From an uncultured Muribaculaceae bacterium (GTDB lineage: Bacteria; Bacteroidota; Bacteroidia; Bacteroidales; UBA932): 64,000 nucleotides of DNA. The stretch covers positions 4,172 to 68,171 of the forward strand of contig CAZITX010000006.1 of NCBI GenBank assembly GCA_964542305.1, given 5' to 3'. The position numbers and the translations under genes were made by a program. Position 1 is the first letter of the stretch, and each line of letters opens with the position of its first letter. Positions 1,273 through 13,193 of this stretch are shown here, in pieces. The notes beneath the pieces are model-generated. The model was not told the origin of the DNA. It saw nothing but the letters and a program-made list of their open reading frames with translations, and ran no database searches.

Positions 1273-1286
1273 AGGTTTCCCGGGCA

Positions 1287-1339
1287 GTTTTGTGGCAGTT
1301 CCAGGCGGTTTTGTGGCAGTTCCAGGTTGTTTTGTGGCC
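1287..1339. repeat. 21-nt direct tandem repeat, 2.5 copies (GTTTTGTGGCAGTTCCAGGCG), in the ugd/wzx intercistronic gap
   Basis: Units at 1287-1307, 1308-1328 and 1329-1339 (partial). The reverse complement CCTGGAACTGCCACAAAAC loosely resembles the GTGGAACC...GCGCCAAAA REP unit. Confidence 0.85.
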
Positions 1340-1345
1340 GGAGGC

Positions 1346-2665
1346 TTATGCCCCCAGTCCAATTCCTATGTATTCAAAGCCTTTCTCTTTGATTTCCTGT
1401 GGGTTGTAAATATTGCGCCCGTCAACGACCAGCGGCGTATGCATGATCTTGCGCAGCACGTCCCACGCAGGCATGCGGAATTCTTTCCACTCGGTCACCA
1501 GCACCAGCGCGTGCGCATCGTTAGCCGCTTCGTACATGTCGTTTGCAAAATGAATTGATTTGCCGAGTAGGCCGCGCGCCTGGTCCATGGCCACGGGATC
1601 GTAAGCCTGTACGCGGCATCCGGCTTCCAGCAGACTTTCAATGAGCACCCGGGAAGGCGCTTCCCGCATATCGTCGGTCTGTGGCTTGAAGGAAAGCCCC
1701 CAAACCGCAACGGTTTTACCTTTGAGCGCACCGCCGAAGTGTTTGTGCAACTTGTCAAACAGCACCTTCTTTTGAGCTTCGTTCACCCGGTCCACCGATT
1801 CTATGAGTTCCATAGGATACCCGTGCTCGCGGCCCATGCCAATGAGCGCCTTCACATCTTTTGGGAAGCAACTGCCTCCGTAGCCCGGCCCGGCGTACAG
1901 GAATTTATGCCCGATGCGGGTGTCCGAGCCGATCCCTACGCGCACGCTGTTCACATCGGCACCCATTTTTTCACAAAGGTTGGCCATCTGGTTCATGAAC
2001 GAGATGCGGGTGGCCAGCATGGCGTTGGCTGCGTATTTGGTCATCTCGGCAGAAGGAACATCCATAAAGAGCACCCGGAAATTCTTCAGCAGGAAAGGCC
2101 GGTAGAGGTTTTCCATGATCTTGCGGGCCTTTTCGGTTTCCACACCTACGACCACCCGGTCCGGGCTCATGAAATCGCGGATGGCGTCGCCTTCCTTCAG
2201 AAATTCGGGATTGGAAGCTATGTCAAAAGGGATATCGGCTTTTCGCTTGCCGAGTTCTTCGTTGATCACCTGTTTTACTTTGGCGGCGGTGCCTACCGGA
2301 ACCGTACTTTTGGTGGTGAATACCAGGTAGTTGGTCATGTGTTTTCCCACAGTCCGGGCCACATCCAAAACGTAATGAATGTCCGCGCTCCCGTCTTCAT
2401 TAGGCGGCGTACCGACGGCACTGAACACAATTTCCGTGTTTTCCAGGCAATCCTTCAGTTCTGTGGTAAAATGCAAACGCCCTGCAATTACGTTCCGGCT
2501 GACCATGGGCTCCAGTCCGGGTTCATAAATGGGCAAAATTCCTTTTTTCAGGTTCTCGATCTTCTGTTTGTCAATGTCCACACACGTCACGTGTGCGCCC
2601 ATCTCGGCAAAACAGACTCCGGACACAAGTCCTACGTACCCGGTTCCTACAATGGCAATATTCAT
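1346..2665 (-). CDS. ugd: UDP-glucose 6-dehydrogenase
   Basis: 439 aa. N-terminal Rossmann motif IVGTGYVGLVSG, catalytic Cys motif GYGGSCFPKDV, and full-length family resemblance. Confidence 0.93.
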   Translation of the reverse strand: MNIAIVGTGYVGLVSGVCFAEMGAHVTCVDIDKQKIENLKKGILPIYEPGLEPMVSRNVIAGRLHFTTELKDCLENTEIVFSAVGTPPNEDGSADIHYVLDVARTVGKHMTNYLVFTTKSTVPVGTAAKVKQVINEELGKRKADIPFDIASNPEFLKEGDAIRDFMSPDRVVVGVETEKARKIMENLYRPFLLKNFRVLFMDVPSAEMTKYAANAMLATRISFMNQMANLCEKMGADVNSVRVGIGSDTRIGHKFLYAGPGYGGSCFPKDVKALIGMGREHGYPMELIESVDRVNEAQKKVLFDKLHKHFGGALKGKTVAVWGLSFKPQTDDMREAPSRVLIESLLEAGCRVQAYDPVAMDQARGLLGKSIHFANDMYEAANDAHALVLVTEWKEFRMPAWDVLRKIMHTPLVVDGRNIYNPQEIKEKGFEYIGIGLGA

Positions 2666-2798: not shown

Positions 2799-3805
2799 AC
2801 CGTCCGCTCCAGTCCCTCCCGGAAGGTCATCTGCTGCTGCCAGCCGAGTTCGGTTTTGATCTTGGTGGCGTCTATGGCATAACGCAAGTCGTGTCCCGGG
2901 CGGTCGGTGACAAAGGTGATGAGCGGGAGGGAGTCGCCTGCCGGACGGCCCAGCTGACGGTCGGTGATTTCTATGAGCAGGCGCACCAGTTCAATATTCT
3001 GCCACTCGTTCTCCCCGCCTATATTATAGGTTTCACCCACACGGCCCTTATGAAACACCAGGTCAATGGCCCGGGCATGGTCTTCCACATACAGCCAGTC
3101 ACGAACGTTTTCGCCTTTGCCGTATACGGGTAGTGGTTTGCGGTTTACTATATTGTTGATGATCACGGGGATCAGTTTTTCCGGGTACTGGCAGGGTCCG
3201 TAATTGTTGGAGCAATTGGATATCTTCACGGGCAGCCCGTAGGTATGGTAAAAAGCCCTTACAAAATGATCTGCCGAGGCTTTGGAGGCCGAGTAGGGGG
3301 AGCGGGGGTCATAGGGGGTGGTTTCCCGGAAGGGTTCGTCCCCAAAGTGAAGTGCACCGTAAACTTCATCTGTGGATATCTGGTAAAAAAGGTGTTTGTG
3401 GTAGTCTTCCTTTTTCCAGTACGTTTTGGCCGTTTGCAACAGGGTAAGCGTTCCCATCACATTGGAGCGGGCAAAGGCAAACGGATCCGTAATGCTGCGG
3501 TCCACATGGCTTTCGGCCGCCAGGTGTATCACGGCATCTATTTGGTATTTACGGAAGATCTCCTCCATTTTCGCATGATCGCACACATCGGCCTGTATGA
3601 ACACATAATTGGGTTCATTTTCAATATCTTTCAGGTACTCCGGGTTGGCTGCATACGTTAATTTATCCACATTGATGATGCGGTACTGCGGATACTTCTT
3701 CACAAAATGCCTGACCACGTGCGATCCAATGAAGCCACACCCGCCGGAGATGAAAATCTCAGAGATTCTGCGCAAGTCCATGAGGTTGTTTTTTGCACTT
3801 TCCAT
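2747..3805 (-). CDS. rfbB: dTDP-glucose 4,6-dehydratase
   Basis: 352 aa. Rossmann motif SGGCGFIGSHV and SDR catalytic motif PYSASKASADHF. An alternative start at the second ATG (3781, MDLRRISEIF...) fits the usual short N-terminus better. Both termini are encoded by the repeat elements. Confidence 0.9.
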   Translation of the reverse strand: MESAKNNLMDLRRISEIFISGGCGFIGSHVVRHFVKKYPQYRIINVDKLTYAANPEYLKDIENEPNYVFIQADVCDHAKMEEIFRKYQIDAVIHLAAESHVDRSITDPFAFARSNVMGTLTLLQTAKTYWKKEDYHKHLFYQISTDEVYGALHFGDEPFRETTPYDPRSPYSASKASADHFVRAFYHTYGLPVKISNCSNNYGPCQYPEKLIPVIINNIVNRKPLPVYGKGENVRDWLYVEDHARAIDLVFHKGRVGETYNIGGENEWQNIELVRLLIEITDRQLGRPAGDSLPLITFVTDRPGHDLRYAIDATKIKTELGWQQQMTFREGLERTVISEILRKNSAVSTTKR

Positions 3806-3862
3806 AAAATCAGCAGGTTAAGATTTGGTGGTGTTGTGTGTTGCGCAGAATCTCTGAGATTC
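3754..3862. repeat. REPIN/MITE-like inverted REP doublet (~109 nt) at the rfbA/rfbB junction
   Basis: Arm 3754-3775 is AAATCTCAGAGATTCTGCGCAA. A 65-nt spacer follows. Arm 3841-3862 is TTGCGCAGAATCTCTGAGATTC. The spacer shares a CATA(A/T)AATCAGC block with the 2691-2798 copy. Confidence 0.85.
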
Positions 3863-4791: not shown

Positions 4792-6498
4792 ATGAAATGT
4801 TTGTGGATACTGGCAACCATCCTTTTTATGCAGGGTCACGGGCTGCCCCCAGCCGCAGCTGCAATGCCCGAAATGCCAGCGGTCGCAGCTGCAATGCCCG
4901 GACTGGCCGCTTCCGCAGCTCCAATCCCCGAACTGCCCACGTCCGCTTCTGCAGCTGCACTGCCCGGGCTGACCGTGGTTGACGGGACAGGCAAAACGGC
5001 GGCTTCATCCGCAGGAACAGATATTGACAGTTTGCAGGTGATTGCTGACAGCTTGCTCAATGGCAAAACTGTTGCGGTGATGACAGGATCCCTGGGCGAG
5101 ATGATGCTGACCGATGAATGCCCGCAAGTGGTAGTACGCTGTTTTGACGATATCATGGACGGCTTTGCCGCGCTGCGGGCCGGAAAGGTAAATTACGTGA
5201 TGACCGCCTACACAACAGCCTATGTGGTGAACCGTTCCGAACGGTCGTACCGGATATTACCGCATCATTTGACCAATGAAGGGGCCGGGGTGGCCATATC
5301 CAAAAGCAATGATACCGGGTTGTTGCGGGGAATCGATTCGGTTCTGGCTGTTTTTAGAAAGGACGGTACTCTGGACGCGATCATAGGGAACTGGATCCGA
5401 CACGACGGCTCGGATTATGTGATTCCTGAATTCGGGAATAATGACAGGCAACAGGACAGATCTACAAGTGTTCATGAGGGCAGGCCTGCTAACTCTCAGC
5501 AAGACAGACCGGTGTTGCGGGTGGGTACTGCAGCCAACAGGGAGCCCATGTGTTTCATTCAAAACAACAAGATTGCCGGACTGGACTGGGAGTTGATGAT
5601 GCGTACCGGTGAGGCGCTGGGTATGGAAGTGGAATTTGTGGATATGAAATATGCCGCCCTGATAGCAGCCTTGCAATCGGGAAAGATAGATGCCATCGCA
5701 TCAAATATGACAGCAACAGCCGAGCGGAAAAAGCAGGTGGATTTTTCCGAGGTGTATTTTGTGAATCCACAGGTGCTGATCGTTTGGGATCCCGGTGAGC
5801 TTTCTGAAAATGAAGGGAATGCCACTCTTGGTCATTGGGATCAGTTAAAAGACGGATTGCAACGGAATCTGATCCACGAAAAACGTTACCGATTGATATT
5901 GGACGGATTGTGGATTACATTCGTCATTGCCATTCTCTCTGTGATCCTGGGGACACTGGTGGGGGCAGGTATCTGTGCTTTGCGCATGTCTTCGCACCCG
6001 ATAAGTAGAAATTTTGCAAAGGGATACATTTCTTTATTCCGGGCGATCCCGCACGTGGTTATTCTGATGTTGATGTTTTACGTGGTGTTTGCTACGTTGC
6101 GGATCAGCGGAATTTTTGTTTCTGTCATTACGTTTGCCATGATCTTTGCGGCATATTCTTCAGAGTTATTCCGAACATCCCTGGAGAGTATTCCCACAGG
6201 TCAGCGTCATGCTGGACTGGCCCTGGGTCTTAATAAATTCCAGACATTTTGGTACATTTTACTGCCCCAGGCCGTACGGATTGCGTTTCCGGTCTACAAG
6301 GGCGAGGTGATTTCACTTATTAAAATGACGGCAATTGTGGGATATATTGCGGTTCAGGATCTTACAAAGGCCGGAGATATAATTCGCAGCCGCACTTTTG
6401 ATGCATTCTTTCCACTGGTGATGGTCGCCCTGATCTATATGGTGATCATTTGGGTCATCACCCGGCTTTTGAACCTGATCTCTTTCAAGCAGAGTTAA
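4792..6498 (+). CDS. Fused amino-acid ABC transporter protein: two SBP_bac_3-like substrate-binding modules plus a His/Glu/Gln/Arg-type permease domain
   Basis: 568 aa. Signal-like N-terminus, Ala/Pro repeat linker, SBP-like segments (GKTVAVMTGS...DGTLDAIIGNW; LRVGTAANREPMCF...SGKIDAIASNMTATAERKKQVDFSEVY), then a multi-TM permease (LDGLWITFVIAILSVILGTLVGA...). Confidence 0.75.
   Translation: MKCLWILATILFMQGHGLPPAAAAMPEMPAVAAAMPGLAASAAPIPELPTSASAAALPGLTVVDGTGKTAASSAGTDIDSLQVIADSLLNGKTVAVMTGSLGEMMLTDECPQVVVRCFDDIMDGFAALRAGKVNYVMTAYTTAYVVNRSERSYRILPHHLTNEGAGVAISKSNDTGLLRGIDSVLAVFRKDGTLDAIIGNWIRHDGSDYVIPEFGNNDRQQDRSTSVHEGRPANSQQDRPVLRVGTAANREPMCFIQNNKIAGLDWELMMRTGEALGMEVEFVDMKYAALIAALQSGKIDAIASNMTATAERKKQVDFSEVYFVNPQVLIVWDPGELSENEGNATLGHWDQLKDGLQRNLIHEKRYRLILDGLWITFVIAILSVILGTLVGAGICALRMSSHPISRNFAKGYISLFRAIPHVVILMLMFYVVFATLRISGIFVSVITFAMIFAAYSSELFRTSLESIPTGQRHAGLALGLNKFQTFWYILLPQAVRIAFPVYKGEVISLIKMTAIVGYIAVQDLTKAGDIIRSRTFDAFFPLVMVALIYMVIIWVITRLLNLISFKQS
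4855..4977 (+). repeat. Imperfect 30-36 nt tandem repeat x4 encoding an Ala/Pro-rich linker
   Basis: Units GCAGCTGCAATGCCCGAAATGCCAGCGGTC (4855-4884), 4885-4914, 4915-4950 and 4951-4977. They encode AAAMPEMPAV / AAAMPGLAAS / AAPIPELPTSAS / AAALPGLTV. Confidence 0.8.
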
Positions 6499-7664
6499 TC
6501 CAACTTATTGTAATACACGAATTTGTGCTTGGGCAGGGCGTCTGGGTAAAAAATCGCGACCAGATCGGCCAGGATTAGGTGCGGACTGACGGCCCCCGAC
6601 TCGAAATAATCACTACCACCTCCACGCGTGCTGCGCAGGTTGTTGTTCCAGACGTTGCCGTTGCGGAAAGCCGGAATCTCGGCAAATCTCTGATCCGATG
6701 CCGCCAGCGAAGAAAGATCGGAGAACTGGTTTGGATGAAGCCAAAAATCTGCTTCAAGTGCATAAATGTAAGCCTGTTCCGTGCTGATGACCGTCGTTTT
6801 TTTTCCGTGTTCCGAGCCGAGTATGACGCCTCCGGCGTCCCTGATCAGGATGTGTTGATGGCTCTCCGTTCCGGGCACGTACCAGACGTCTTTGAACGGT
6901 GCGTTGATCAGGACTTTAACCGGTTTGAAGGTTGTGTTGAGCGAGTCCTGGCTGCTGCTGCCGTTTTCCAACGCTTTGCGCCGTTGCCTGAGTGTTACTG
7001 CCTGCCTGGCCAGGAGGCAATATTCTTCGTAAGTCTCGTATATCCAGTGGAATTGCTCCATCGCCATCACCTCTTTGTCAAAATATGCGGCAAAGGCCAC
7101 CAAGAACTCGGCCTTCCCAAGGGGATGATCTTCAAGGTGTTCGGGCACTTCTACAACACATATACCCAACTTCCTGATCTTCTGGATGTAATCAGCAGGC
7201 TGTCCCGGTACGGCATATGCGAAAACGATGTCAGGCTCCAATGCCATCAGGGTTTCATAATCAATTGCCGATTCGTAACCCACATCCACGGCGTTCCTGA
7301 GTTTGTCATTATATATATACTGACGACCGGAAATACCTATAATTGAGCGGGTTTCGTTGATGGCATCCAGGTAGGCAATGTGAGTGGTTGACAAGCAGAC
7401 CACCCGTTTCACTTTATGAATAACCTGCCTGGTTTCTTTCTTTGACACCGGATCTTTAAGGTACAAAACCTTTTCCCCGTCTTCCCTCGCAATAAAGAAG
7501 TTATTGGCATACAGTGGTTTATAGATATATTCAATATCACCCTCTTTAAAAGGCTCTTGCGTCAAATTCTGTATACGAAAATTCCTGCTCCGGGGACCGG
7601 GACAAGATTGAAATGCCAGTGTGAACAGCAATACGCAGGAGCCGATAACAGCTCCCCTGAGCAT
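6495..7664 (-). CDS. ABC-transporter periplasmic binding lipoprotein (Peripla_BP_2 / BtuF-FecB-like)
   Basis: The ORF-track start at 7730 overlaps the tRNA, so I trimmed it to Met23 (ATG at 7664). That start gives MLRGAVIGSCVLLFTLAFQSC, a lipobox. The family-like core is VVCLSTTHIAYLDAI...LEPDIVFA... Confidence 0.75.
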   Translation of the reverse strand: MLRGAVIGSCVLLFTLAFQSCPGPRSRNFRIQNLTQEPFKEGDIEYIYKPLYANNFFIAREDGEKVLYLKDPVSKKETRQVIHKVKRVVCLSTTHIAYLDAINETRSIIGISGRQYIYNDKLRNAVDVGYESAIDYETLMALEPDIVFAYAVPGQPADYIQKIRKLGICVVEVPEHLEDHPLGKAEFLVAFAAYFDKEVMAMEQFHWIYETYEEYCLLARQAVTLRQRRKALENGSSSQDSLNTTFKPVKVLINAPFKDVWYVPGTESHQHILIRDAGGVILGSEHGKKTTVISTEQAYIYALEADFWLHPNQFSDLSSLAASDQRFAEIPAFRNGNVWNNNLRSTRGGGSDYFESGAVSPHLILADLVAIFYPDALPKHKFVYYNKLD

Positions 7665-7694
7665 TCTGGTTTTTTTCACAACTAATTGTTTTTG

Positions 7695-7767
7695 AGCCTT
7701 CCACGGGACTCGAACCCGCGACCTGCTCATTACGAATGAGCTGCTCTACCGACTGAGCTAAGAAGGC
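7695..7767 (-). tRNA. tRNA-Thr (anticodon CGT)
   Basis: The reverse complement folds as a 73-nt cloverleaf. Acceptor GCCTTCT/GGAAGGC; D arm GCTC-AGTCGGTA-GAGC; anticodon arm GCTCA-TTCGTAA-TGAGC; variable loop AGGTC; T arm GCGGG-TTCGAGT-CCCGT. CCA is not encoded. Confidence 0.9.
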
Positions 7768-7800: not shown

Positions 7801-7902
7801 CTGCGCCGCAAATGGAGTTTGCTGCGCCAGAGACCCGCAGTGAGTGCGCCACAAATGGAGATTGATGCGCCACAGACCCCACCTGCTGCGCCAAAATTTT
7901 GG
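7801..7902. repeat. ~42-nt tandem array (2.3 copies), each unit carrying a REP-like AAATGGAG(T/A)TTG(C/A)TGCGCCA core
   Basis: Units at 7803-7845, 7846-7887 and 7888-7902 (partial). REP cores lie at 7810-7829 and 7853-7873. Confidence 0.85.
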
Positions 7903-7921
7903 TGCAGTTAAAGTACGTTCG

Positions 7922-7929
7922 TACCTTTG
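7922..7929 (+). promoter_or_regulatory. -7 promoter box (TACCTTTG) for the flavoprotein gene
   Basis: Matches TAnnTTTG and lies 4 nt before the ATG at 7934. Confidence 0.4.
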
Positions 7930-7933
7930 GTAA

Positions 7934-9328
7934 ATGGATGTAATAGTAATAGGAGCAGGAGCTGCAGGCATGATGGCAGCGGGTACGGCGGCCGAGCGGG
8001 GAGCACGGGTTGTGTTGCTGGAGAAGATGGAGAAGCCGGGGCGTAAACTGGCCATTACCGGCAAAGGCCGTTGCAATATTACGAATCTTAAGGATTGGGA
8101 AGCGTTCAGCCCCCACGTCCATCCGCTAAAAAGGTATTTCAAGCCTGCATTTTATCAATTTACAAGTGAGGATACGGTGAATTTTTTCAATGACATTGGG
8201 TTGCCTACGGTTGTGGAACGCGGTACCCGGGTGTACCCGGCTTCACAACAGGCTTTTGATGTGATCGATGTTATGAAATCGTGGCTGGAACGTCTTGGCG
8301 TTCAGATAGTATACAATTCTCGGGTACTGGAATTCATTACGGAAGACAAAAGGGGCACAGATGATGATCGGGCTGCACAATCGGCAATGACCTCTGCGGG
8401 CGAAATTTCAGCAGAAGGCACCAGGGAGGTAGCAGGTCAACAGAAAGTTGACTCGGCAAAGACTAAGAAGGAGGACCTGCTGAAAATCAGGGCGGTGAAG
8501 GTGGAAGGCGCAGACGGTAAGTTCAGGTCTCTGGAAGCGGACCATTTCATCCTGGCCACGGGCGGACAGTCCTATCCCAGAACGGGTTCGACCGGAGACG
8601 GGTACCCTTTGGCCTCGGCTTTAGGACATACCATTGAGCCACTATTTCCGACGTTAACTGCCTTGATGCCTGTGAATTACGACCGAAGCCTGGAGGGGAT
8701 TCAACTGCGCAACGTGCGCCTGGAGCTTTACACCGAGCAGGTGCTCCGGCGTTCGGAAGACGGCGAACTGTATTTCACCAACCTCGGGATCGAAGGTCCT
8801 ATTGGCTTTCGCGTGAGCCGGCAAGCGGTCGTGGCCCTGAACAAGGGTCAACGCGTTGCCTTGCACCTGAATCTGAAACCCGCACTTACGCGGGAGCAAT
8901 TGATGGCTCGGTGGGAGCGGGAATCAATGGCCCGGTGGGAGCGGGAATCAATGGCCCGGTGGGAGCGGGAATCAATGGCCGTCGCGCTTTCCCTGCGATT
9001 GAAACGTTATTTGCCCGAGGCGTTGATTGCTCCCTTTATAAAATACCTTGCCGAGTCGGGGCTGCACCCTGTAGATGGTATGCTTCGATGGGTCTTTCCC
9101 ATAGCCTCTTACGGAGACTGGGCCCGGGCAGTCGTCACTGCAGGCGGAATTTCTATGAAAGAGATCGACCTACACACCATGCGTTCAAAACGCGTTGCAA
9201 ATTTATCGATTGCAGGTGAAGTCATGGATTTGGACGCAGACAGCGGCGGCTACAACCTCCAGATAGCCTTTGCTACCGGCAGGGTGGCGGGAAATGGCGC
9301 GGTAGGTGGAACCTTCCGCGCCAAATAA
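7934..9328 (+). CDS. HI0933/BaiN-type NAD(P)/FAD-dependent oxidoreductase (aminoacetone-oxidase family flavoprotein)
   Basis: 464 aa. FAD-binding motif VIVIGAGAAGMMAAGTAAERG, family motif ITGKGRCNITN, and C-terminal GGYNLQIAFATGRVAG. It carries two insertions and a REP-encoded tail (GGTFRAK). Confidence 0.85.
   Translation: MDVIVIGAGAAGMMAAGTAAERGARVVLLEKMEKPGRKLAITGKGRCNITNLKDWEAFSPHVHPLKRYFKPAFYQFTSEDTVNFFNDIGLPTVVERGTRVYPASQQAFDVIDVMKSWLERLGVQIVYNSRVLEFITEDKRGTDDDRAAQSAMTSAGEISAEGTREVAGQQKVDSAKTKKEDLLKIRAVKVEGADGKFRSLEADHFILATGGQSYPRTGSTGDGYPLASALGHTIEPLFPTLTALMPVNYDRSLEGIQLRNVRLELYTEQVLRRSEDGELYFTNLGIEGPIGFRVSRQAVVALNKGQRVALHLNLKPALTREQLMARWERESMARWERESMARWERESMAVALSLRLKRYLPEALIAPFIKYLAESGLHPVDGMLRWVFPIASYGDWARAVVTAGGISMKEIDLHTMRSKRVANLSIAGEVMDLDADSGGYNLQIAFATGRVAGNGAVGGTFRAK
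8903..8980 (+). repeat. 24-bp perfect or near-perfect tandem repeat, 3.25 copies, in frame (MARWERES x3)
   Basis: ATGGC(T/C)CGGTGGGAGCGGGAATCA at 8903-8926, 8927-8950 and 8951-8974, plus a partial copy at 8975-8980. Confidence 0.95.
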
Positions 9329-9405
9329 TTGAAGCTGTTTCTTATATGTCTAATAGTTAGATATATGGAAAATACGTTACTTTTTTGGCGCGCTAAGGTT
9401 CCACC
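9305..9405. repeat. Inverted REP doublet A (REPIN-like)
   Basis: 9305-9325 is GGTGGAACCTTCCGCGCCAAA. 9384-9405 is TTTGGCGCGCTAAGGTTCCACC, an inverted copy with a small indel. The spacer is 58 nt and AT-rich. The doublet overlaps the ends of both convergent genes. Confidence 0.9.
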
Positions 9406-10237
9406 TCCTAAGACTAGTTTCGGCAATATTCAACACTCTGCTTAATTGTTTAATTGATACCGGTAACTTTTGTCTGACACTTCTAGCCAGTCGGATTTTT
9501 TCGGTGACTGAAAGCTGTGGAATGGTTTTTGGTGAAATTTGTTTTAAAATCAACTGGCTTATATAGATATCCGGATACCTTACCTTCATTGAATATTGTA
9601 GAGATTCCAGCTCAGACTTCTCTTTATCAGTAGGATTGGATAATTTGATCATGGCCTTATCATAGGGTCCAAGATATTTTTCTACTTCTTTTATTTTCAA
9701 AAAGCTACCAGGATAAATGTGTCCTTTATTGTTTACACAGTAATGATCAGGTATTTGCTCTGACGAATAGGGTAGATTTGTATTCTTTTCAACTAGTTGA
9801 TAATCTTTGCCATAGTCGATTCCACGGTCTTTTTGATAATAATACCTGGCTGAACAAAAAGGATCGCTATAGGGATGTTTCACTGTTCCATGTCTGGTTG
9901 AATTGCGTAAAACATAAATCAGTTTCTCTATCAACTCTTCTTCATTTCTTGCCAAAACCGACACATATCCCCTGCTGCCTACACTTCCTTCAGTTTTGTA
10001 TTTATGATTGTAATAATTGGCATAGCTAACTCGTAATGCTTTAATAAAAAAGGAAGGATCTGTGCATCTTACAAATAGATGTAAATGGTTTGATAGAAAA
10101 TCATACGCAAGAACCTCCACATCGTATTTGTAGGCAAATACAGCCAGCAAATCAATCATATGATATATATCTTCTTTCTCCAGGAATAAGCTTTGATGCG
10201 CATTTCCTCTGATACATATGTGGCGGTAAATCTTCAT
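9377..10237 (-). CDS. REP-associated tyrosine transposase-like protein (HUH / Y1_Tnp, IS200-like fold) with a C-terminal HTH-like extension
   Basis: 286 aa. HUH motif FLSNHLHLFV (H51-L-H53) and Tyr motif LIYVLRNSTRHG (Y108). The C-terminal segment SVTEKIRLARSVRQKLPVSIKQLSRVLNIAETSLRRW looks like an HTH. REPs flank the gene on both sides. Confidence 0.8.
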   Translation of the reverse strand: MKIYRHICIRGNAHQSLFLEKEDIYHMIDLLAVFAYKYDVEVLAYDFLSNHLHLFVRCTDPSFFIKALRVSYANYYNHKYKTEGSVGSRGYVSVLARNEEELIEKLIYVLRNSTRHGTVKHPYSDPFCSARYYYQKDRGIDYGKDYQLVEKNTNLPYSSEQIPDHYCVNNKGHIYPGSFLKIKEVEKYLGPYDKAMIKLSNPTDKEKSELESLQYSMKVRYPDIYISQLILKQISPKTIPQLSVTEKIRLARSVRQKLPVSIKQLSRVLNIAETSLRRWNLSAPKK

Positions 10238-10290
10238 ATGATCAAAGAAAAGTACAATTTGTAGAATAAAAGGGACAAAAAAGATAAAGA

Positions 10291-10393
10291 GGTGGAACCT
10301 TCCGCGCCAAAAATCATCTAGATATTTTATAAATATCAGATTAACAAGGTGTTTATAAAATAGGGACTAATAAATGGCGCGGAAGGTTCCACC
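10291..10393. repeat. Inverted REP doublet B (REPIN-like)
   Basis: 10291-10313 is GGTGGAACCTTCCGCGCCAAAAA. 10375-10393 is the inverted copy TGGCGCGGAAGGTTCCACC. The spacer is 61 nt and AT-rich. Confidence 0.9.
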
Positions 10394-10980
10394 TAGATTA
10401 TCTTAAAATCCACTTCCGGCAGTACTCTTATCCTGGATCCGGGAGCAGCGGGTAAAGGCGTATGAAGCTCCAGAATTAGTAAATCTCCCATTTTCAAATA
10501 TACAAAACCTGATAAATGGGCTATTCTCTTTGCAACAAATTGGCTAGAGGGGATGGGAAATGTCAGCACTTGACGGTCATCCGCTTGGAGTGGATTATCG
10601 TCTTTTTGCATAGAAATTTGTTCAATTTGATCTTTGCCGAGGAAAGTCCTTGGCATGGACAAGGAGTAGTCGAGTGCGAGGCCGGGAATCCACAGGGATC
10701 CATTGTGCTTTATGTCTGCATTTGGATCCGAGTTAGTTTCTGATAAAACTTTCGGATGTCCGTAGATACAAACACCATAATTTACTTCTGAATAATACCT
10801 ATGAGCAAACTGTTCCTTTATACTTCTGCCTAAGCGGTTGAATTTGAGAATATAACATGAAGTGTAAGTAATACTTCCACAAACCGGGGGAATAAAAAAA
10901 TCATCTGTAGGTTTAGCCAGAGCCGTATCCGGTTTCATGTAAAAATCATCAGCCCCAAAAGGATAGGCAAAGAGTTTCAT
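10393..10980 (-). CDS. Short FAH-family-like protein, apparently degenerate (hypothetical)
   Basis: 195 aa. The segments FYMKPDTALAKP...FIPP, KEQFAHRYYSEV and LKMGDLLILE...G resemble the ~200-aa FAH-type proteins of Bacteroidota. The acidic metal-site positions look substituted. This rests on memory-based comparison only. Confidence 0.45.
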   Translation of the reverse strand: MKLFAYPFGADDFYMKPDTALAKPTDDFFIPPVCGSITYTSCYILKFNRLGRSIKEQFAHRYYSEVNYGVCIYGHPKVLSETNSDPNADIKHNGSLWIPGLALDYSLSMPRTFLGKDQIEQISMQKDDNPLQADDRQVLTFPIPSSQFVAKRIAHLSGFVYLKMGDLLILELHTPLPAAPGSRIRVLPEVDFKII

Positions 10981-11044
10981 AAATCAGGCAAACATTACGG
11001 TTCGTAAACCAAAAATGAAAGTATGGCGGAGTATTATGGGATTT

Positions 11045-11064
11045 GTGGCGCATCAAACTCCATC
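11045..11064. repeat. Solo REP unit (GTGGCGCATCAAACTCCATC, reverse complement GATGGAGTTTGATGCGCCAC) overlapping the exonuclease stop codon
   Basis: Same core as the units at 7810-7829, 7853-7873 and 11883-11905. Confidence 0.75.
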
Positions 11065-11820
11065 TGATAATTTAATCTCCGTGAGTACCTTTTTTGTATC
11101 CAGGGTGAAGTCGCCTCTCATCATCCAATCGTAGTAGGAGGGCTCTTTTTGAAATACTTCTTTTACACGGCGGCCTTTGTGTTTGCCAAAATTAAAGACG
11201 GGTTGATCTTCGTCATCAAGAACAACCCGACCGGCATAATCCAGATTGCGTGTTTTTGTAGAGAATTCTGAAAGAAAGCTTATTTCGTTTTGCAAGTCTT
11301 GCGGGTAGCGGTCCAGCTGGGCTTCCAGGATTTCATAAGTGGCAACTGTATCTGCTTCTGCACTATGTGCATTTTCAAGATCCTTATCACAATAGAATCT
11401 GTAGGCGGCTTTTAGTGTACGTTGTTCCATTTTATGGAATATGTTCTGTACATCTACAAGCTTGCGTTTACGGAAATTGAAATCTATGCCGGCACGTAAA
11501 AATTCTTCCGATAACATGGGAACGTCAAATCGGGTAGAATTATAACCTGCTATGTCACAACCTTCCATCCATTTGGCAAGCGATTTGGCGATCTCTTTAA
11601 AAGTAGGTTCATTAGCTACGTCTTCATTTGAAATACCATGAATAGCCTGAGCTTCAGGTGAAATGGGAATAGTAGGATTTATTCGCCTGGTTTTAATTTC
11701 GCGTGTACCATCGGGACTGATTTTAAGCACACATATCTCTACAATGCGATCAGAAGCAACATTCAATCCAGTTGTTTCAAGGTCCAGAAAAAGTATAGGT
11801 CGTTTGAGATTTAATTTCAT
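11053..11820 (-). CDS. DEDDh 3'-5' exonuclease (DnaQ / Pol III epsilon-like)
   Basis: 255 aa. Exo I motif FLDLETTG, Exo II motif GYNSTRFDVPML, Exo III motif HSAEADTVAT. It lies downstream of dnaN. Confidence 0.88.
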   Translation of the reverse strand: MKLNLKRPILFLDLETTGLNVASDRIVEICVLKISPDGTREIKTRRINPTIPISPEAQAIHGISNEDVANEPTFKEIAKSLAKWMEGCDIAGYNSTRFDVPMLSEEFLRAGIDFNFRKRKLVDVQNIFHKMEQRTLKAAYRFYCDKDLENAHSAEADTVATYEILEAQLDRYPQDLQNEISFLSEFSTKTRNLDYAGRVVLDDEDQPVFNFGKHKGRRVKEVFQKEPSYYDWMMRGDFTLDTKKVLTEIKLSDGV

Positions 11821-11882
11821 ATTATGGCTAATTATGGTGATCAGAATGCAAACTTACAAAAATTTATGGTGGCTGGTAGGTT

Positions 11883-11983
11883 AAATGGAGTTTGACTGCG
11901 CCAACAAAATCATCTGTTTTGTAATTTTCATAAATACAGATGTTTATGTTTACGAAAATAATGTGGCGCAGCAGTCTCCATTT
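11883..11983. repeat. Inverted REP doublet C (REPIN-like) in the dnaN/exonuclease spacer
   Basis: 11883-11905 is AAATGGAGTTTGACTGCGCCAAC. 11963-11983 is the inverted copy GTGGCGCAGCAGTCTCCATTT. The 57-nt AT-rich spacer begins AAAATCATCT, like the spacer of doublet B. Confidence 0.88.
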
Positions 11984-12068
11984 GACGGCCTAAAAACGCC
12001 ACAAGCACCGCAAATGCCTGGGTAGCCTGGGCATGAATATGCTGTCGCAGTTGTTACTTGCAGCCTTG

Positions 12069-13193
12069 TTACTGTGTGATCATCATGGGCATGATGAGGG
12101 CGCAGATCTCTTCGTTTTCCGAGTCCGGGGTGATGGGGGTGACTAAGCCGACGCGGGAGGGATCGCTCAGGGCGATGTTGACTTCGGTGCCGGGCAGGTT
12201 GGCGAGAATCTCGGCAAGGAATACGGATTTGAAGCCCATTTCTATTGCCGGGCCTTCGTACTGGCAGGTGATGCGTTCCTGGGCGGCTATGCGGAATTCA
12301 ATGTCCTGGGCGGATACAAAGATCTGGTTGGAGGAGAAGAGCAGTTTAATCAGGTTGGTGGCCTGGTTGGAGCATACGCTCACGCGGCGTACGGCATTCA
12401 TCAGTTCTACGCGGTCTGCAATGATGTTGTTGGGGTTGTTCTGGGGAATGACGCTGCGATAAGCAGGGTAGTTGCCTTCCACCAGCCGGCAGATCATGCG
12501 GTATGATCCAAATGAAAAGAAGGCGTTTGTTTTGTCGTAAGATATGACAATGTCGTCCTCAATTTTGACCAACAGGTTTTTGAGAATGTTAGCCGGTTTT
12601 TTGGGCAAAATGAAGGAGGAATCCTCGGGGGCGTTGATATCCGAACGGGTGTAGCAAACCAGTTTATGGGAATCGGAAGCAACCAGATTGGCAGCTTCTT
12701 TTTTCAGGTCAAAGAAGACTCCGTTCATTACGGGACGCAATTCTTCGTCACCGGCAGCAAAAAGCGTACGGTTTATACCTTCCAACAATACATCCGGCGA
12801 AAATGAAATTGACATACTTTCAACCGGTTCTTTGATCTGGGGATAATCCTCGGCCGGGAATCCGGGTACCTGGAATTTTCCCGTGGACCAGGTGAATTCA
12901 ATGATATTCTGTTCTTTGTTGAAAGCAAAAGTCAGCGGCTGCTCGGGAAATTCCTTCAAAGAATCTGTGAGAATACGCGCGGGAATGGCTACACTGCCTT
13001 CTTCTGTCACAGAATCCAGCTGCATGGTTGTGCGTAAGGTAGTCTCCAGGTCCGATGCTGTTATGGTAAGCGAGTCCCCGGTCAGATTGAACAGAAAATT
13101 GTCCAGAATGGGCAACGTATTTTTGGAAGCGATAACCCTGCTTACGGATTGAAGTCTTCCCAACAGTTCTGAGCTTGATACAACAAATTTCAT
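12069..13193 (-). CDS. dnaN: DNA polymerase III beta sliding clamp
   Basis: 374 aa. The N-terminus MKFVVSSSELLGRLQSVSRVIASKNTLPILDNFLF and overall length are typical of DnaN. Confidence 0.93.
   Translation of the reverse strand: MKFVVSSSELLGRLQSVSRVIASKNTLPILDNFLFNLTGDSLTITASDLETTLRTTMQLDSVTEEGSVAIPARILTDSLKEFPEQPLTFAFNKEQNIIEFTWSTGKFQVPGFPAEDYPQIKEPVESMSISFSPDVLLEGINRTLFAAGDEELRPVMNGVFFDLKKEAANLVASDSHKLVCYTRSDINAPEDSSFILPKKPANILKNLLVKIEDDIVISYDKTNAFFSFGSYRMICRLVEGNYPAYRSVIPQNNPNNIIADRVELMNAVRRVSVCSNQATNLIKLLFSSNQIFVSAQDIEFRIAAQERITCQYEGPAIEMGFKSVFLAEILANLPGTEVNIALSDPSRVGLVTPITPDSENEEICALIMPMMITQ

What the first reader, a model, noticed from the sequence alone, without database searches (positions are those of the whole stretch)
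9305..10393. RAYT-like HUH/Y1 transposase gene bracketed by two inverted REP doublets (REPIN-type architecture) in a Bacteroidota-like genome
Seen directly in the sequence:
- ORF 9377-10237 (-) has an HUH motif (FLSNHLHLFV, H51-L-H53) and a Tyr motif about 55 aa later (LIYVLRNSTRHG, Y108). That is the layout of Y1/IS200-type HUH enzymes.
- Four copies of the unit GGTGGAACCTTCCGCGCCA(AA) lie at 9305-9325 (+), 9384-9405 (inverted, small indel), 10291-10313 (+) and 10375-10393 (inverted).
- The copies form two doublets with the GCGCCA ends facing inward and AT-rich spacers of 58 and 61 nt, one doublet on each side of the gene.
- No IS-style long terminal repeats are visible.

Established knowledge: single-copy RAYT genes flanked by REPs, with REP doublets (REPINs) as the mobilised unit, are described mainly in Proteobacteria.

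Inference: this is a RAYT/REPIN-type system with its own REP family in a phylum where such systems are, to my knowledge, barely characterised.
Basis: partly seen in the sequence, partly recalled or inferred. Interest (0 to 1): 0.8.

Follow-up and report, generated by a model that had tools for sequence, protein, structure and literature searches.

The report
RAYT-like gene with hairpin repeat doublets
A single-copy, vertically inherited relative of the REP-associated tyrosine transposases sits in an uncultured Bacteroidales genome between two 103-105-nt hairpin repeats whose copies also occur at a few other places in related genomes; it is a real and tidy example of a known kind of system, in a long, little-described protein subfamily.

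Summary
ORF 9377-10237(-) encodes a 286-aa Y1 HUH protein. It passes the Pfam Y1_Tnp cutoff, H51/H53/Y108 are invariant in 56 relatives, and the best fold match of its AlphaFold model is E. coli TnpA_REP bound to a REP.

The gene is bracketed by two 103-105-nt doublets of the unit AGGTGGAACCTTCCGCGCCA. It behaves like a domesticated RAYT, not an IS:
- It holds the same syntenic slot in every contig shown or grouped as similar, and in orthologs down to 54% identity.
- dN/dS is about 0.1.
- Each ortholog is flanked by its own co-varying repeat variant.

The doublets are dispersed but rare. A related MAG has three further doublets, and five non-RAYT sites were found overall. They show no target duplications and vary structurally between strains.

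It differs from canonical RAYT/REP systems in four ways:
- The units are not themselves good palindromes.
- The protein lacks the W motif and scores below NCBIfam's RAYT cutoff.
- It carries a roughly 150-aa C-terminal extension ending in a helix-turn-helix-like region.
- The inner 3' repeat is translated as the protein's tail.

A second, related repeat type (AAATGGAGTTTGACTGCGCCA) coexists in the locus. RAYT-like genes with repeats in Bacteroidetes were already catalogued in 2018, so novelty is moderate.

The parts
9377..10237 (-). RAYT-like Y1 HUH gene (286 aa plus stop). N-terminal HUH/Y1 domain of about 130 aa. C-terminal extension of about 150 aa ending in a helix-turn-helix-like three-helix unit. 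The last 9 residues, RWNLSAPKK, are encoded by the inner repeat unit.
   Evidence: N50, H51, H53, Y108, R111, N112 invariant in 56 sequences; pLDDT 89.7; dN/dS 0.08-0.18.
10290..10394 (.). Upstream type-1 doublet, 105 nt. Arms are 10290-10309(+) and 10375-10394(-), perfectly complementary over 20 bp, with a 65-nt AT-rich spacer. It ends 52 nt before the gene's ATG. Its outer end supplies the AG of the TAG stop of the 195-aa ORF.
   Evidence: I2; z = -10.6; orthologous in other lineages, with arms co-varying.
9304..9406 (.). Downstream type-1 doublet, 103 nt. The outer arm 9304-9323(+) encodes the last residues of the flavoprotein ORF, ...GGTFRAK*, whose stop codon follows at 9326-9328. The inner arm 9386-9406(-) is the 21-nt variant AGGTGGAACCTTAGCGCGCCA, which lies inside the RAYT coding sequence.
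   Evidence: (z = -6.6).
9295..9323 (.). 29-nt palindrome TGGCGCGGTAGGT-GGA-ACCTTCCGCGCCA. It is a partial extra unit fused to the outer arm. The same arrangement is seen at another site, L033 2023-2051.
   Evidence: (I9).
11883..11985 (.). Type-2 doublet, 103 nt: AAATGGAGTTTGACTGCGCCA ... TGGCGCAGCAGTCTCCATTT, with a degenerate right arm. It lies between the ExoX-like gene and dnaN. This is the repeat type that flanks the 54%-identical ortholog.
   Evidence: exact 21-mer, 0 in shuffles; z = -6.5.
11046..11065 (-). Single type-2-like unit AGATGGAGTTTGATGCGCCA. It overlaps the 3' end of the ExoX-like gene and encodes ...DGV*.
7802..7900 (+). Array with a period of about 21 nt. It contains two type-2-like units (7810-7829, 7853-7872) interleaved with GCGCCACAGACCC-type units. 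It lies between tRNA-Thr and the flavoprotein gene start.
   Evidence: Comparable arrays flank relatives in L141, L143 and L153.

Best explanation
This is a REPtron-type locus. It holds a chromosomally fixed, vertically inherited Y1 HUH single-strand DNA endonuclease/transferase of the RAYT (TnpA_REP) kind, together with its cognate non-autonomous elements. Here those elements are 102-105-nt 'doublets' built from two inverted 20-21-nt units.

Shown:
- The gene is intact and under purifying selection.
- It keeps the HUH histidines and the Tyr in a Y-[IV]-x-x-N-P-type motif.
- It folds like TnpA_REP.
- It does not move, while its flanking doublets have copies at other intergenic sites, without target duplications.
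- Those sites are often flush with stop codons and differ in structure between strains.
- The repeat sequence changes in step with the protein across orthologous loci.

Inferred mechanism:
- On single-stranded DNA, for example the lagging-strand template, the two arms of a doublet pair into a 20-bp stem.
- A dimer of the protein recognises the stem and its feet. The C-terminal helix-turn-helix-like domain may add sequence-specific contacts.
- The protein cleaves through a 5'-phosphotyrosine link at Y108, with metal held by H51/H53.
- It occasionally excises, copies or rearranges the doublet into new single-stranded sites. The low copy number suggests a low rate.
- The gene's own flanking doublets are the resident copies.
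- The type-2 units in the same locus and genome probably belong to an older repeat family that the type-1 family is replacing.
For: Protein:
- Pfam Y1_Tnp is above its cutoff.
- The NCBIfam best hit is REP_Tyr_transpos.
- N50, H51, H53, Y108, R111 and N112 are invariant in 56 relatives.
- The AlphaFold model has pLDDT 89.7.
- The top Foldseek hit is 4er8_A, TnpA_REP with a REP hairpin (E = 1e-5, TMt 0.68).
- The family profile's best PDB sequence hit is 4er8.

Immobility and selection:
- 24 contigs were read. The 10 places shown have the same context and the other 14 were grouped as similar.
- Orthologs at 75%, 69% and 54% identity occupy the same slot.
- dN/dS is 0.08-0.18 with saturated dS.
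- No full-length relatives occur on plasmids or phages.

Repeats:
- Exact units are far above chance.
- Nine generic-motif units lie within 7810-11983 against 0.04 expected.
- The related MAG has three further doublets.
- Five non-RAYT sites were found in related contigs, with perfect 20-bp arms, diverged spacers and no target duplication.
- The doublets form hairpins with z = -6.5 to -10.6.

Co-evolution:
- Each ortholog is flanked on both sides by doublets of its own variant, with compensatory changes in both arms.

Dynamics:
- One site carries a type-1 doublet in some contigs and a type-2 doublet in others.
- Another site carries a 102-nt doublet, a 45-nt palindrome, or a doublet plus an extra unit, depending on the contig.

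Family-wide pattern:
- Six more distant members (19-45% identity) each have the same element of about 100-140 nt on both sides of the gene.
- Four of those six fold as long hairpins.
Against: - No activity was tested. Mobility is inferred from distribution and polymorphism only.
- Copy number is low: 9 exact 18-mers in the related MAG and none outside the locus in this 64-kb window. Three of the dispersed doublets sit within one 10-kb stretch.
- The 20-nt unit alone is not a convincing palindrome and lacks the canonical GT[AG]G-foot hairpin. It has GTGG and a 4-bp mini-stem only.
- The protein scores 32 bits against NCBIfam's 80-bit RAYT cutoff.
- It has G-S where all published subclasses have W-Q, W-E or F-Q (versus the table in PMC6006769).
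- No clean empty site was recovered for any doublet.
- The complete source genome could not be scanned, so single-copy status and genome-wide counts rest on contigs and one related MAG.
Confidence: 0.75

Rival explanations
1. It is better filed as a TIRtron/TIRYT (Di Nocera et al. 2013; probably subclass 2.1 of Quentin et al. 2018). That is a long RAYT-like protein with a C-terminal helix-turn-helix domain, flanked by non-palindromic terminal inverted repeats that form a moderately abundant family organised as dimers. Mechanistically this is the same idea, a Y1 enzyme acting on its flanking repeats. The difference is that recognition of the repeat relies on the extra DNA-binding domain rather than on a REP hairpin.
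For: - The protein has 286 aa with a C-terminal extension whose end looks like a helix-turn-helix. This rests on the model's secondary structure and on weak local fold hits.
- The units are not self-complementary.
- The outermost units form perfect 20-bp terminal inverted repeats.
- The repeats are organised as dimers and occur in low-to-moderate copy number.
- Overlap of a flanking repeat with the 3' end of the gene ('3'ov') is described for such loci in PMC3733652.
Against: - The published conserved repeat motif GGGGWSAS is absent.
- The published subclass 2.1 signatures (NHVH or NH[YF]H; W[EQ] or FQ; YIELNP or Y[IV]HLNP) do not fit NHLH; G-S; YVLRNS.
- No Pfam Bac_DnaA_C, HTH_23 or HTH_28 hit was found in any of 56 family members.
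- Membership of subclass 2.1 could not be tested directly, because no subclass models were available.
Confidence: 0.3
2. The doublets are host structural or regulatory elements, such as terminators or mRNA-stabilising hairpins at gene 3' ends, or protein-binding sites. They would be maintained by selection. The Y1 protein would have a non-transpositional host role at them, or would merely neighbour them. Dispersal would then be ancient and no longer ongoing.
For: - Doublets sit immediately after, or overlapping, stop codons of several genes.
- Element length is constant at 102-105 nt across lineages although the spacers have diverged.
- Copy number is low.
- The orthologous flanking doublets have been kept in place over saturated synonymous divergence.
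Against: - The arm sequence changes in step with the protein in every lineage and is homogenised among dispersed copies within a genome. The arms are 100% identical while the spacers are less than about 50% identical. That pattern is expected for copying by a cognate enzyme and not for independent regulatory sites.
- Strain-level rearrangements occur at the same sites.
- A 65-nt AT-rich loop without a following T-run is not a typical intrinsic terminator.
Confidence: 0.15
3. It is an ordinary autonomous IS200/IS605-type insertion sequence. The gene plus its subterminal hairpins would transpose as a unit, and the short doublets would be its deletion derivatives.
For: - The protein has a Y1_Tnp domain.
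- Hairpin-forming sequences lie on both sides of the gene.
- There are no target duplications.
- The outer 20-bp inverted repeats bound a 1.1-kb unit.
Against: - The locus is the same in every contig shown or grouped as similar, and across orthologs down to 54% identity, with dS saturated.
- The Tyr motif is Y-x-x-x-N, as in RAYTs, and not the IS200 type Y-x-x-x-Q.
- The NF033573 IS200 model scores only 15 bits.
- There is no tnpB.
- No plasmid or phage copies were found.
Confidence: 0.03

Closest known systems
REPtron: E. coli TnpA_REP (RAYT, YafM; PDB 4er8) with flanking REP/BIME (REPIN) pairs; Pseudomonas RAYT-REPIN systems (Bertels & Rainey 2011; Ton-Hoang 2012; Messing 2012)
   Same: - Single-copy, vertically inherited Y1 HUH gene.
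- The best structural and profile match is 4er8.
- The Tyr motif is of the Y-[IV]-x-x-N-P type.
- The gene is bracketed by inverted repeat pairs whose family is dispersed in intergenic DNA, often just 3' of genes.
- The repeat type is specific to the gene lineage, that is, the two co-evolve.
- Several related repeat subtypes occur within one locus.
   Different: - The protein is about 120 aa longer, with an uncharacterised C-terminal domain.
- There is no W-Q or W-E motif.
- The score is below NCBIfam's RAYT cutoff.
- The units are not individually palindromic and have no GT[AG]G foot.
- There are only about ten units per genome instead of tens to hundreds.
- The inner 3' unit is translated.
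TIRtron/TIRYT (Di Nocera et al. 2013, PMC3733652) and TnpA_Y1 subclass 2.1 (Quentin et al. 2018, PMC6006769)
   Same: - Long RAYT-like protein with a C-terminal helix-turn-helix-type extension.
- Flanking inverted repeats that are not REP palindromes.
- Repeat families of moderate size, organised as dimers or clusters.
- Repeats that can overlap the gene's 3' end.
   Different: - The sequence signatures of subclass 2.1 and the GGGGWSAS repeat motif are not present.
- Subclass 2.1 was reported as lacking REP-like sequences near the gene, whereas here doublets flank the gene in every lineage examined.
- No Pfam DnaA_C or HTH hit was found.
TnpA_Y1 subclasses 2.4 and 2.6 (Bertels groups 4 and 5), the Bacteroidetes-rich RAYT subclasses (PMC6006769)
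   Same: - Same phylum.
- NH[LIV]H-type HUH motif.
- Flanking 'atypical secondary structures' with copies elsewhere in the genome (2.6).
- 'Double-foot' long palindromes and in-frame REP sequences inside the gene (2.4). The 45-nt palindrome in L087 and the translated 3' unit here are comparable.
   Different: - Those proteins are 179-194 aa with W-Q and YIH[QN]NP or YIxNNP motifs. This one is 286 aa with G-S and YVLRNS.
[quoted passage not shown]
IS200/IS605 TnpA (IS608, ISDra2)
   Same: HUH/Y1 fold (Foldseek hits 2-30). Hairpin-forming flanks. No target duplication.
   Different: The gene is not mobile and not multi-copy. The Tyr motif is not Y-x-x-x-Q. The hairpins are about 105 nt long with 20-bp stems, instead of about 25-nt subterminal hairpins.

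Membership tests
RAYT / TnpA_REP (class 2 TnpA_Y1) | HUH motif and a catalytic Tyr about 55-60 aa downstream, on an IS200-like Y1 fold | tested here: met
   N50-H51-L-H53 and Y108 are invariant in 56 relatives. Pfam Y1_Tnp scores 27.2 bits against a cutoff of 23. Foldseek top hit is 4er8_A, E = 1e-5.
RAYT / TnpA_REP (class 2 TnpA_Y1) | RAYT-type Tyr motif Y-[IV]-x-x-N-P, as opposed to Y-x-x-x-Q of IS200 | tested here: met
   The window protein has YVLRNS and the family consensus is YVLRNP. The profile aligns it to YIYINPVKHG of 4er8. Subclass signatures were taken from PMC6006769.
RAYT / TnpA_REP (class 2 TnpA_Y1) | [quoted passage not shown] | tested here: not met
   The corresponding strand reads V-G-S-R-G-Y, and no conserved W or F-Q column exists in the family alignments.
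RAYT / TnpA_REP (class 2 TnpA_Y1) | Score above the curated model cutoff (NCBIfam NF047646 REP_Tyr_transpos, 80 bits) | tested here: not met
   32 bits, E = 9.8e-8. It is the best NCBIfam hit but lies below the cutoff.
RAYT / TnpA_REP (class 2 TnpA_Y1) | Single copy per genome, vertical inheritance, not on plasmids | tested here: met
   24 contigs were read: the 10 places shown have the same context and the other 14 were grouped as similar. Orthologs are syntenic down to 54% identity. dN/dS is about 0.1. No plasmid or phage relatives were found. A closed genome was not available, so paralogs elsewhere cannot be excluded.
REPtron / REPIN system | Gene flanked by inverted repeat pairs (doublets) able to form long hairpins | tested here: met
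   Doublets lie at 9304-9406 and 10290-10394. Folds give z = -6.6 and -10.6. The same architecture is seen in the orthologs.
REPtron / REPIN system | Flanking repeat over-represented genome-wide (Bertels 2017: flanking 16-mers at about 12-140 copies, against about 5 for housekeeping genes) | tested here: inconclusive
   The related MAG has 9 exact 18-mers, 6 of them away from the locus. Five non-RAYT doublet sites were found in related contigs. None lies outside the locus in this window. This is far above chance but at the low end of published RAYT groups. The source genome itself could not be scanned.
REPtron / REPIN system | Each unit is itself an imperfect palindrome (REP) with a GT[AG]G foot | tested here: not met
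   The unit AGGTGGAACCTTCCGCGCCA has only a 4-bp AGGT/ACCT mini-stem, and GTGG rather than GT[AG]G. Stable stems arise only between units.
REPtron / REPIN system | Repeat type co-evolves with its cognate gene | tested here: met
   Four orthologous lineages have four unit variants, with compensatory changes in both arms of both doublets.
REPtron / REPIN system | Cleavage and rejoining of the repeat by the protein; mobility of doublets | not testable with these tools
   Only indirect evidence is available: site-level polymorphisms between contigs.
IS200/IS605 insertion sequence | Gene plus ends transposes as a unit, giving multiple near-identical copies at varied sites | tested here: not met
   The locus is fixed in every contig shown or grouped as similar, and in all orthologs. 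NF033573 scores 15 bits against a cutoff of 55.
TIRYT / subclass 2.1 | C-terminal Bac_DnaA_C, HTH_23 or HTH_28 domain; HUH NHVH or NH[YF]H; Tyr motif YIELNP or Y[IV]HLNP; terminal inverted repeats with GGGGWSAS | tested here: not met
   No C-terminal Pfam hit was found in 56 members. The motifs differ. The repeat lacks GGGGWSAS. A helix-turn-helix-like end of the protein is suggested only by the model and by non-significant fold hits.

The most novel reading that the evidence does not exclude
The protein may represent an unclassified, Bacteroidales-wide long subclass of RAYT-like Y1 enzymes. Members would be about 290 aa, lack the W motif and carry a novel C-terminal domain of about 150 aa with a terminal helix-turn-helix.

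All members would carry a cognate hairpin element of about 105 nt on both sides of the gene. This contradicts the published generalisation that long C-terminal-domain subclasses lack REP-like partners.

In the clade of this window the inner 3' unit is part of the coding sequence: RWNLSAP in one lineage and KWSLTAP in another, including a two-base synonymous Leu change. The enzyme's tail and its DNA substrate would then be physically the same sequence.

Two successive repeat types coexist in one genome. That would give a natural snapshot of a RAYT switching its repeat family.
Probability: 0.4. Interest if true: 0.55.

Novelty: new variant of a known kind. Interest (0 to 1): 0.42.

Why it matters
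RAYT-REPIN systems are the main known example of mobile DNA that persists by vertical inheritance inside bacterial lineages. Almost all mechanistic and population work on them comes from Proteobacteria.

This locus offers three things:
- It shows the same logic in uncultured Bacteroidales, with a divergent long-form enzyme. The logic is a fixed single-copy Y1 gene, lineage-specific flanking doublets and dispersed copies.
- It suggests that the association of flanking hairpin elements with long, C-terminally extended Y1 proteins is general. Nine lineages were examined and all have matching flanking elements. This revises a published negative.
- It provides a small, tractable system for testing how a RAYT and its repeats co-evolve. 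There are few copies, two coexisting repeat types, orthologous loci with four unit variants, and a repeat embedded in the coding sequence.

It is not a new kind of system, and no function was demonstrated.

Tried and rejected
- Rfam at gathering thresholds on the whole window found only tRNA-Thr. No known RNA family covers the doublets.
- Foldseek of the C-terminal domain alone (model pLDDT 81.5) gave no significant PDB match. Only weak local hits to small helix-turn-helix domains appeared, so the domain stays unassigned.
- Pfam on 56 family members found nothing on the C-terminal half.
- A search for a conserved motif in doublet spacers found only AT-rich words. No shared site emerged.
- No target-site duplication is visible at any doublet (flanks), which argues against DDE-type MITEs.
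- No orthologous empty site was found. The window does not contain the sites that carry doublets in related contigs. The sites that could be compared carry a different repeat arrangement rather than none.
- The metagenome scan returned only 70 stretches and missed known carriers of the locus, so it could not give a per-genome census.
- The supplements of PMC6006769 contained no Bacteroidales genus names, so the subclass of close relatives could not be looked up.
- About 42 single 18-mer hits in unrelated, mostly GC-rich genomes were treated as chance background.
- Two of six distant relatives (L153, L146) have flanking direct repeats that do not fold as hairpins over the coordinates tried.


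Full report
**1. The observation**

ORF 9377-10237(-) encodes 286 aa with FLSNHLHLFV (H51, H53) and LIYVLRNSTRHG (Y108). The 19-mer GGTGGAACCTTCCGCGCCA is exact at 9305(+), 10291(+) and 10375(-). Shuffles give 0.03 expected even with 3 mismatches. A fourth, 21-nt variant (AGGTGGAACCTTAGCGCGCCA) lies at 9386-9406(-).

With the unit taken as the 20-mer AGGTGGAACCTTCCGCGCCA, the gene is bracketed by two doublets:
- 10290-10394: 105 nt, perfect 20-bp arms, 65-nt AT-rich spacer.
- 9304-9406: 103 nt.

As single-stranded DNA they fold into long hairpins, with z = -10.6 and -6.6. In addition, 9295-9323 is a 29-nt palindrome, that is, a partial extra unit. The outermost units form 20-bp perfect inverted repeats around the 1.1-kb segment. 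No other copy exists in the remaining ~60 kb of the window.

**2. The protein**

- Pfam Y1_Tnp scores 27.2 bits against a cutoff of 23.
- The best NCBIfam model is REP_Tyr_transpos, but at 32 bits against a cutoff of 80. The IS200 model scores 15 bits.
- An exhaustive HMMER search finds 4,072 representative clusters at E <= 1e-3 and 183 at E <= 1e-10. Many are about 290-320 aa and align over the full length.
- In alignments of 35 and 56 relatives, N50, H51, H53, Y108, R111 and N112 are invariant or nearly so. The Tyr motif consensus is YVLRNP.
- An AlphaFold model built on 56 sequences is confident (pLDDT 89.7, pTM 0.90).
- Its best PDB fold match is E. coli TnpA_REP bound to a REP hairpin (4er8_A, E = 1e-5, TMt 0.68). 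IS200, IS608 and ISDra2 transposases follow.
- The family profile's best PDB sequence match is also 4er8. It aligns the HUH motif, the Y-x-x-x-N-P motif and the residues beyond.
- Residues from about 130 to 286 have no Pfam match in any of 56 members and no significant fold match. The last three helices (244-257, 262-269, 273-277) look like a helix-turn-helix, which is an inference.
- The W-Q, W-E or F-Q motif present in every published subclass (table in PMC6006769) is replaced by G-S.

**3. The gene is fixed, not mobile**

The exact protein was read on 24 metagenome contigs. In all 10 places shown, and in the 14 grouped with the first as similar, it lies between an HI0933-like flavoprotein gene and a 195-aa ORF, an ExoX-like gene and dnaN. 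Orthologs at 75% (P0002), 69% (P0003) and 54% (P0004) identity occupy the same slot. In the P0004 lineage the gene with its flanks is inverted relative to its neighbours. Pairwise dN/dS is 0.08-0.18 with synonymous sites saturated. No full-length relatives occur in the plasmid or phage collections. This is RAYT-like (domesticated) behaviour, not IS behaviour.

**4. The repeats are a dispersed, low-copy family**

Scanning one genome per species (596 Gb) for the 18-mer gave multi-hit loci only in the MAG 'Bacteroidales bacterium SO_2017_LW3_103'. That MAG carries the 97%-identical ortholog. It holds the RAYT locus plus three further doublets on another contig. About 42 single hits in unrelated, mostly GC-rich genomes are background.

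Metagenome contigs add more. After clustering, there are five distinct non-RAYT doublet sites, plus singlets. All doublets share these properties:
- They are 102-105 nt long.
- Their arms are 100% identical while their spacers have strongly diverged.
- They have no target duplication.
- They often abut or overlap stop codons.

Three of the sites lie within about 10 kb (L064). This is well above chance, but it sits at the low end of the published range. Bertels 2017 reports flanking 16-mers at about 12-14 copies for groups 1 and 4 and 57-140 for groups 2 and 3.

**5. Co-evolution**

Each ortholog is flanked on both sides by doublets of its own unit variant:

| Lineage | Unit variant |
|---|---|
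| window | AGGTGGAACCTTCCGCGCCA |
| P0002 | GAGGTGGAACCTCGTG(A/C)GCCA |
| P0003 | AGGTGGAACCTCAGCGCGCCA |
| P0004 | AAATGGAGTTTGACTGCGCCA |

Alignments of the orthologous upstream and downstream doublets show compensatory changes in both arms.

The inner 3' unit lies inside the coding sequence in all four lineages. AGG TGG AAC CTT AGC GCG CCA encodes RWNLSAP here, and AAA TGG AGT TTG ACT GCG CCA encodes KWSLTAP in P0004. The two units share 13 of 21 bases, and the differences include a two-base synonymous Leu change. In P0002 the in-gene copy keeps the peptide (RWNLLAP) although it departs from that genome's repeat consensus.

**6. A second repeat type in the same locus**

In the window it forms:
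- a 103-nt doublet with a degenerate right arm at 11883-11985;
- a single unit at 11046-11065 that supplies the ...DGV* end of the ExoX-like gene;
- two units in an array of about 21-nt period at 7802-7900.

The generic motif A[AG][AG]TGGA-N7-9-GCGCCA occurs 9 times in the window, all within 7810-11983, against 0.04 in shuffles. The locus is therefore a repeat cluster around the gene, as in a REPtron. Type-2 doublets are also frequent in related contigs. One orthologous site carries a type-1 doublet in some contigs and a type-2 doublet in others. Another site carries a 102-nt doublet, a 45-nt palindrome (two units 5 nt apart), or a doublet plus an extra tandem unit. These are the expected traces of ongoing rearrangement, but no clean empty site was found.

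**7. Generality**

Six more distant members were examined: P0008 at 45% identity and P0198, P0169, P0223, P0249 and P0191 at about 19-27%. All lie at single loci between housekeeping genes. Each has the same element of about 100-140 nt on both sides of the gene. Four of the six fold as long hairpins with z = -4.8 to -6.9. Several also have adjacent 19-22-nt tandem arrays.

**8. Comparison with the literature**

Quentin et al. 2018 (PMC6006769) classify TnpA_Y1 proteins into 11 subclasses:
- Subclasses 2.4 and 2.6 are common in Bacteroidetes and have flanking repeats. Subclass 2.4 has 'double foot' palindromes and in-frame REPs inside the gene. Subclass 2.6 has 'atypical secondary structures'. 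Both are 179-194 aa with W-Q.
- The long subclasses with C-terminal domains (2.1, 2.3) were reported as not associated with REP-like sequences.
- Subclass 2.1 is probably equivalent to the TIRYT/TIRtron of Di Nocera et al. 2013 (PMC3733652). Those are RAYT-like genes flanked by inverted repeats that form moderately abundant families organised as dimers and sometimes overlap the gene's 3' end.

The present system lies between these descriptions. It works like a REPtron or TIRtron, but it matches none of the published sequence signatures. The protein cluster is already labelled 'REP element-mobilizing transposase RayT' by JGI. No paper on RAYT or REP systems in Bacteroidales was found.

**9. Verdict**

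The finding is real and correctly interpreted in kind. It is a RAYT-like, domesticated Y1 enzyme with cognate hairpin doublets. Four features set it apart:
- the long C-terminal extension;
- the non-palindromic units used only as doublets;
- the translated 3' unit;
- the coexistence and succession of two repeat types.

The mechanism is inferred by analogy with TnpA_REP and IS608 and was not tested. That mechanism is recognition of the hairpin on single-stranded DNA and Tyr-mediated cleavage and rejoining at the feet of the stem. Novelty is moderate: a new variant, probably a new subclass, of a known kind.

Noticed in passing
window 8903-8980: In-frame 24-nt tandem repeat x3.2 (MARWERES) inside the HI0933-like flavoprotein gene 7934-9328(+). 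Called products of 464 and 456 aa in different metagenome contigs suggest copy-number variation of one repeat unit.
   Followed up: partly
window 7802-7900; L141 1903-2030 and 3105-3230; L143 3993-4111; L153 1099-1245, 2372-2458, 2656-2884: Tandem arrays of 19-22-nt period lie next to the hairpin elements that flank RAYT-like genes in several lineages. In this clade they are built from GCGCCA-containing units. Their relation to the doublets is unexplained.
   Followed up: partly
L140-L142 versus window 9300-10400: In the P0004 lineage the RAYT-like gene and its flanking doublets are inverted relative to the same neighbours (flavoprotein gene; 188-aa ORF; ExoX-like gene). This is consistent with recombination between the inverted flanking units.
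   Followed up: partly
window 9305-9328, 10393-10395, 11046-11065; L056 434-436; L141 ~1790-1812: Repeat units repeatedly supply stop codons or the last few residues of neighbouring genes: flavoprotein ...GGTFRAK*, ExoX-like ...DGV*, and TAG stops formed by T plus the AG of the unit. Doublets therefore sit flush against gene 3' ends.
   Followed up: partly
window 10393-10980 (-): A 195-aa ORF with no Pfam match lies immediately upstream of the RAYT-like gene. It is syntenic (181-195 aa) in most orthologous loci. It is absent from the gene calls of the P0003 lineage. Its function is unknown.
   Followed up: no
window 11053-13193: The locus lies next to an ExoX/RNase_T-type 3'-5' exonuclease gene and dnaN (beta clamp). 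IS608 TnpA has been reported to interact with DnaN (cited in PMC6006769). The adjacency may be coincidental.
   Followed up: no
window 1283-1338 and 4853-4953: Two further tandem repeats. One is a 21-nt unit GGCAGTTTTGTGGCAGTTCCA x2.7, downstream of the 439-aa ORF 1346-2665(-). The other is a 30-nt unit x3.4, inside the 5' part of the 568-aa SBP_bac_3/BPD_transp_1 gene (4792-6498).
   Followed up: no
window 7694-7767 (-): tRNA-Thr(CGT). The mechanical 411-aa ORF 6495-7730(-) overlaps it, so the real start of that Peripla_BP_2 gene is probably further downstream. The metagenome call is 389 aa.
   Followed up: no
L101 ~3640-3840 versus L037 ~2880-3010: Downstream of the same tRNA-like 3' end, one contig has a terminator-like hairpin followed by a type-1 doublet. 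A related MAG has AAATGGAG... fused to a single inverted type-1 unit. This is another variable repeat site.
   Followed up: partly
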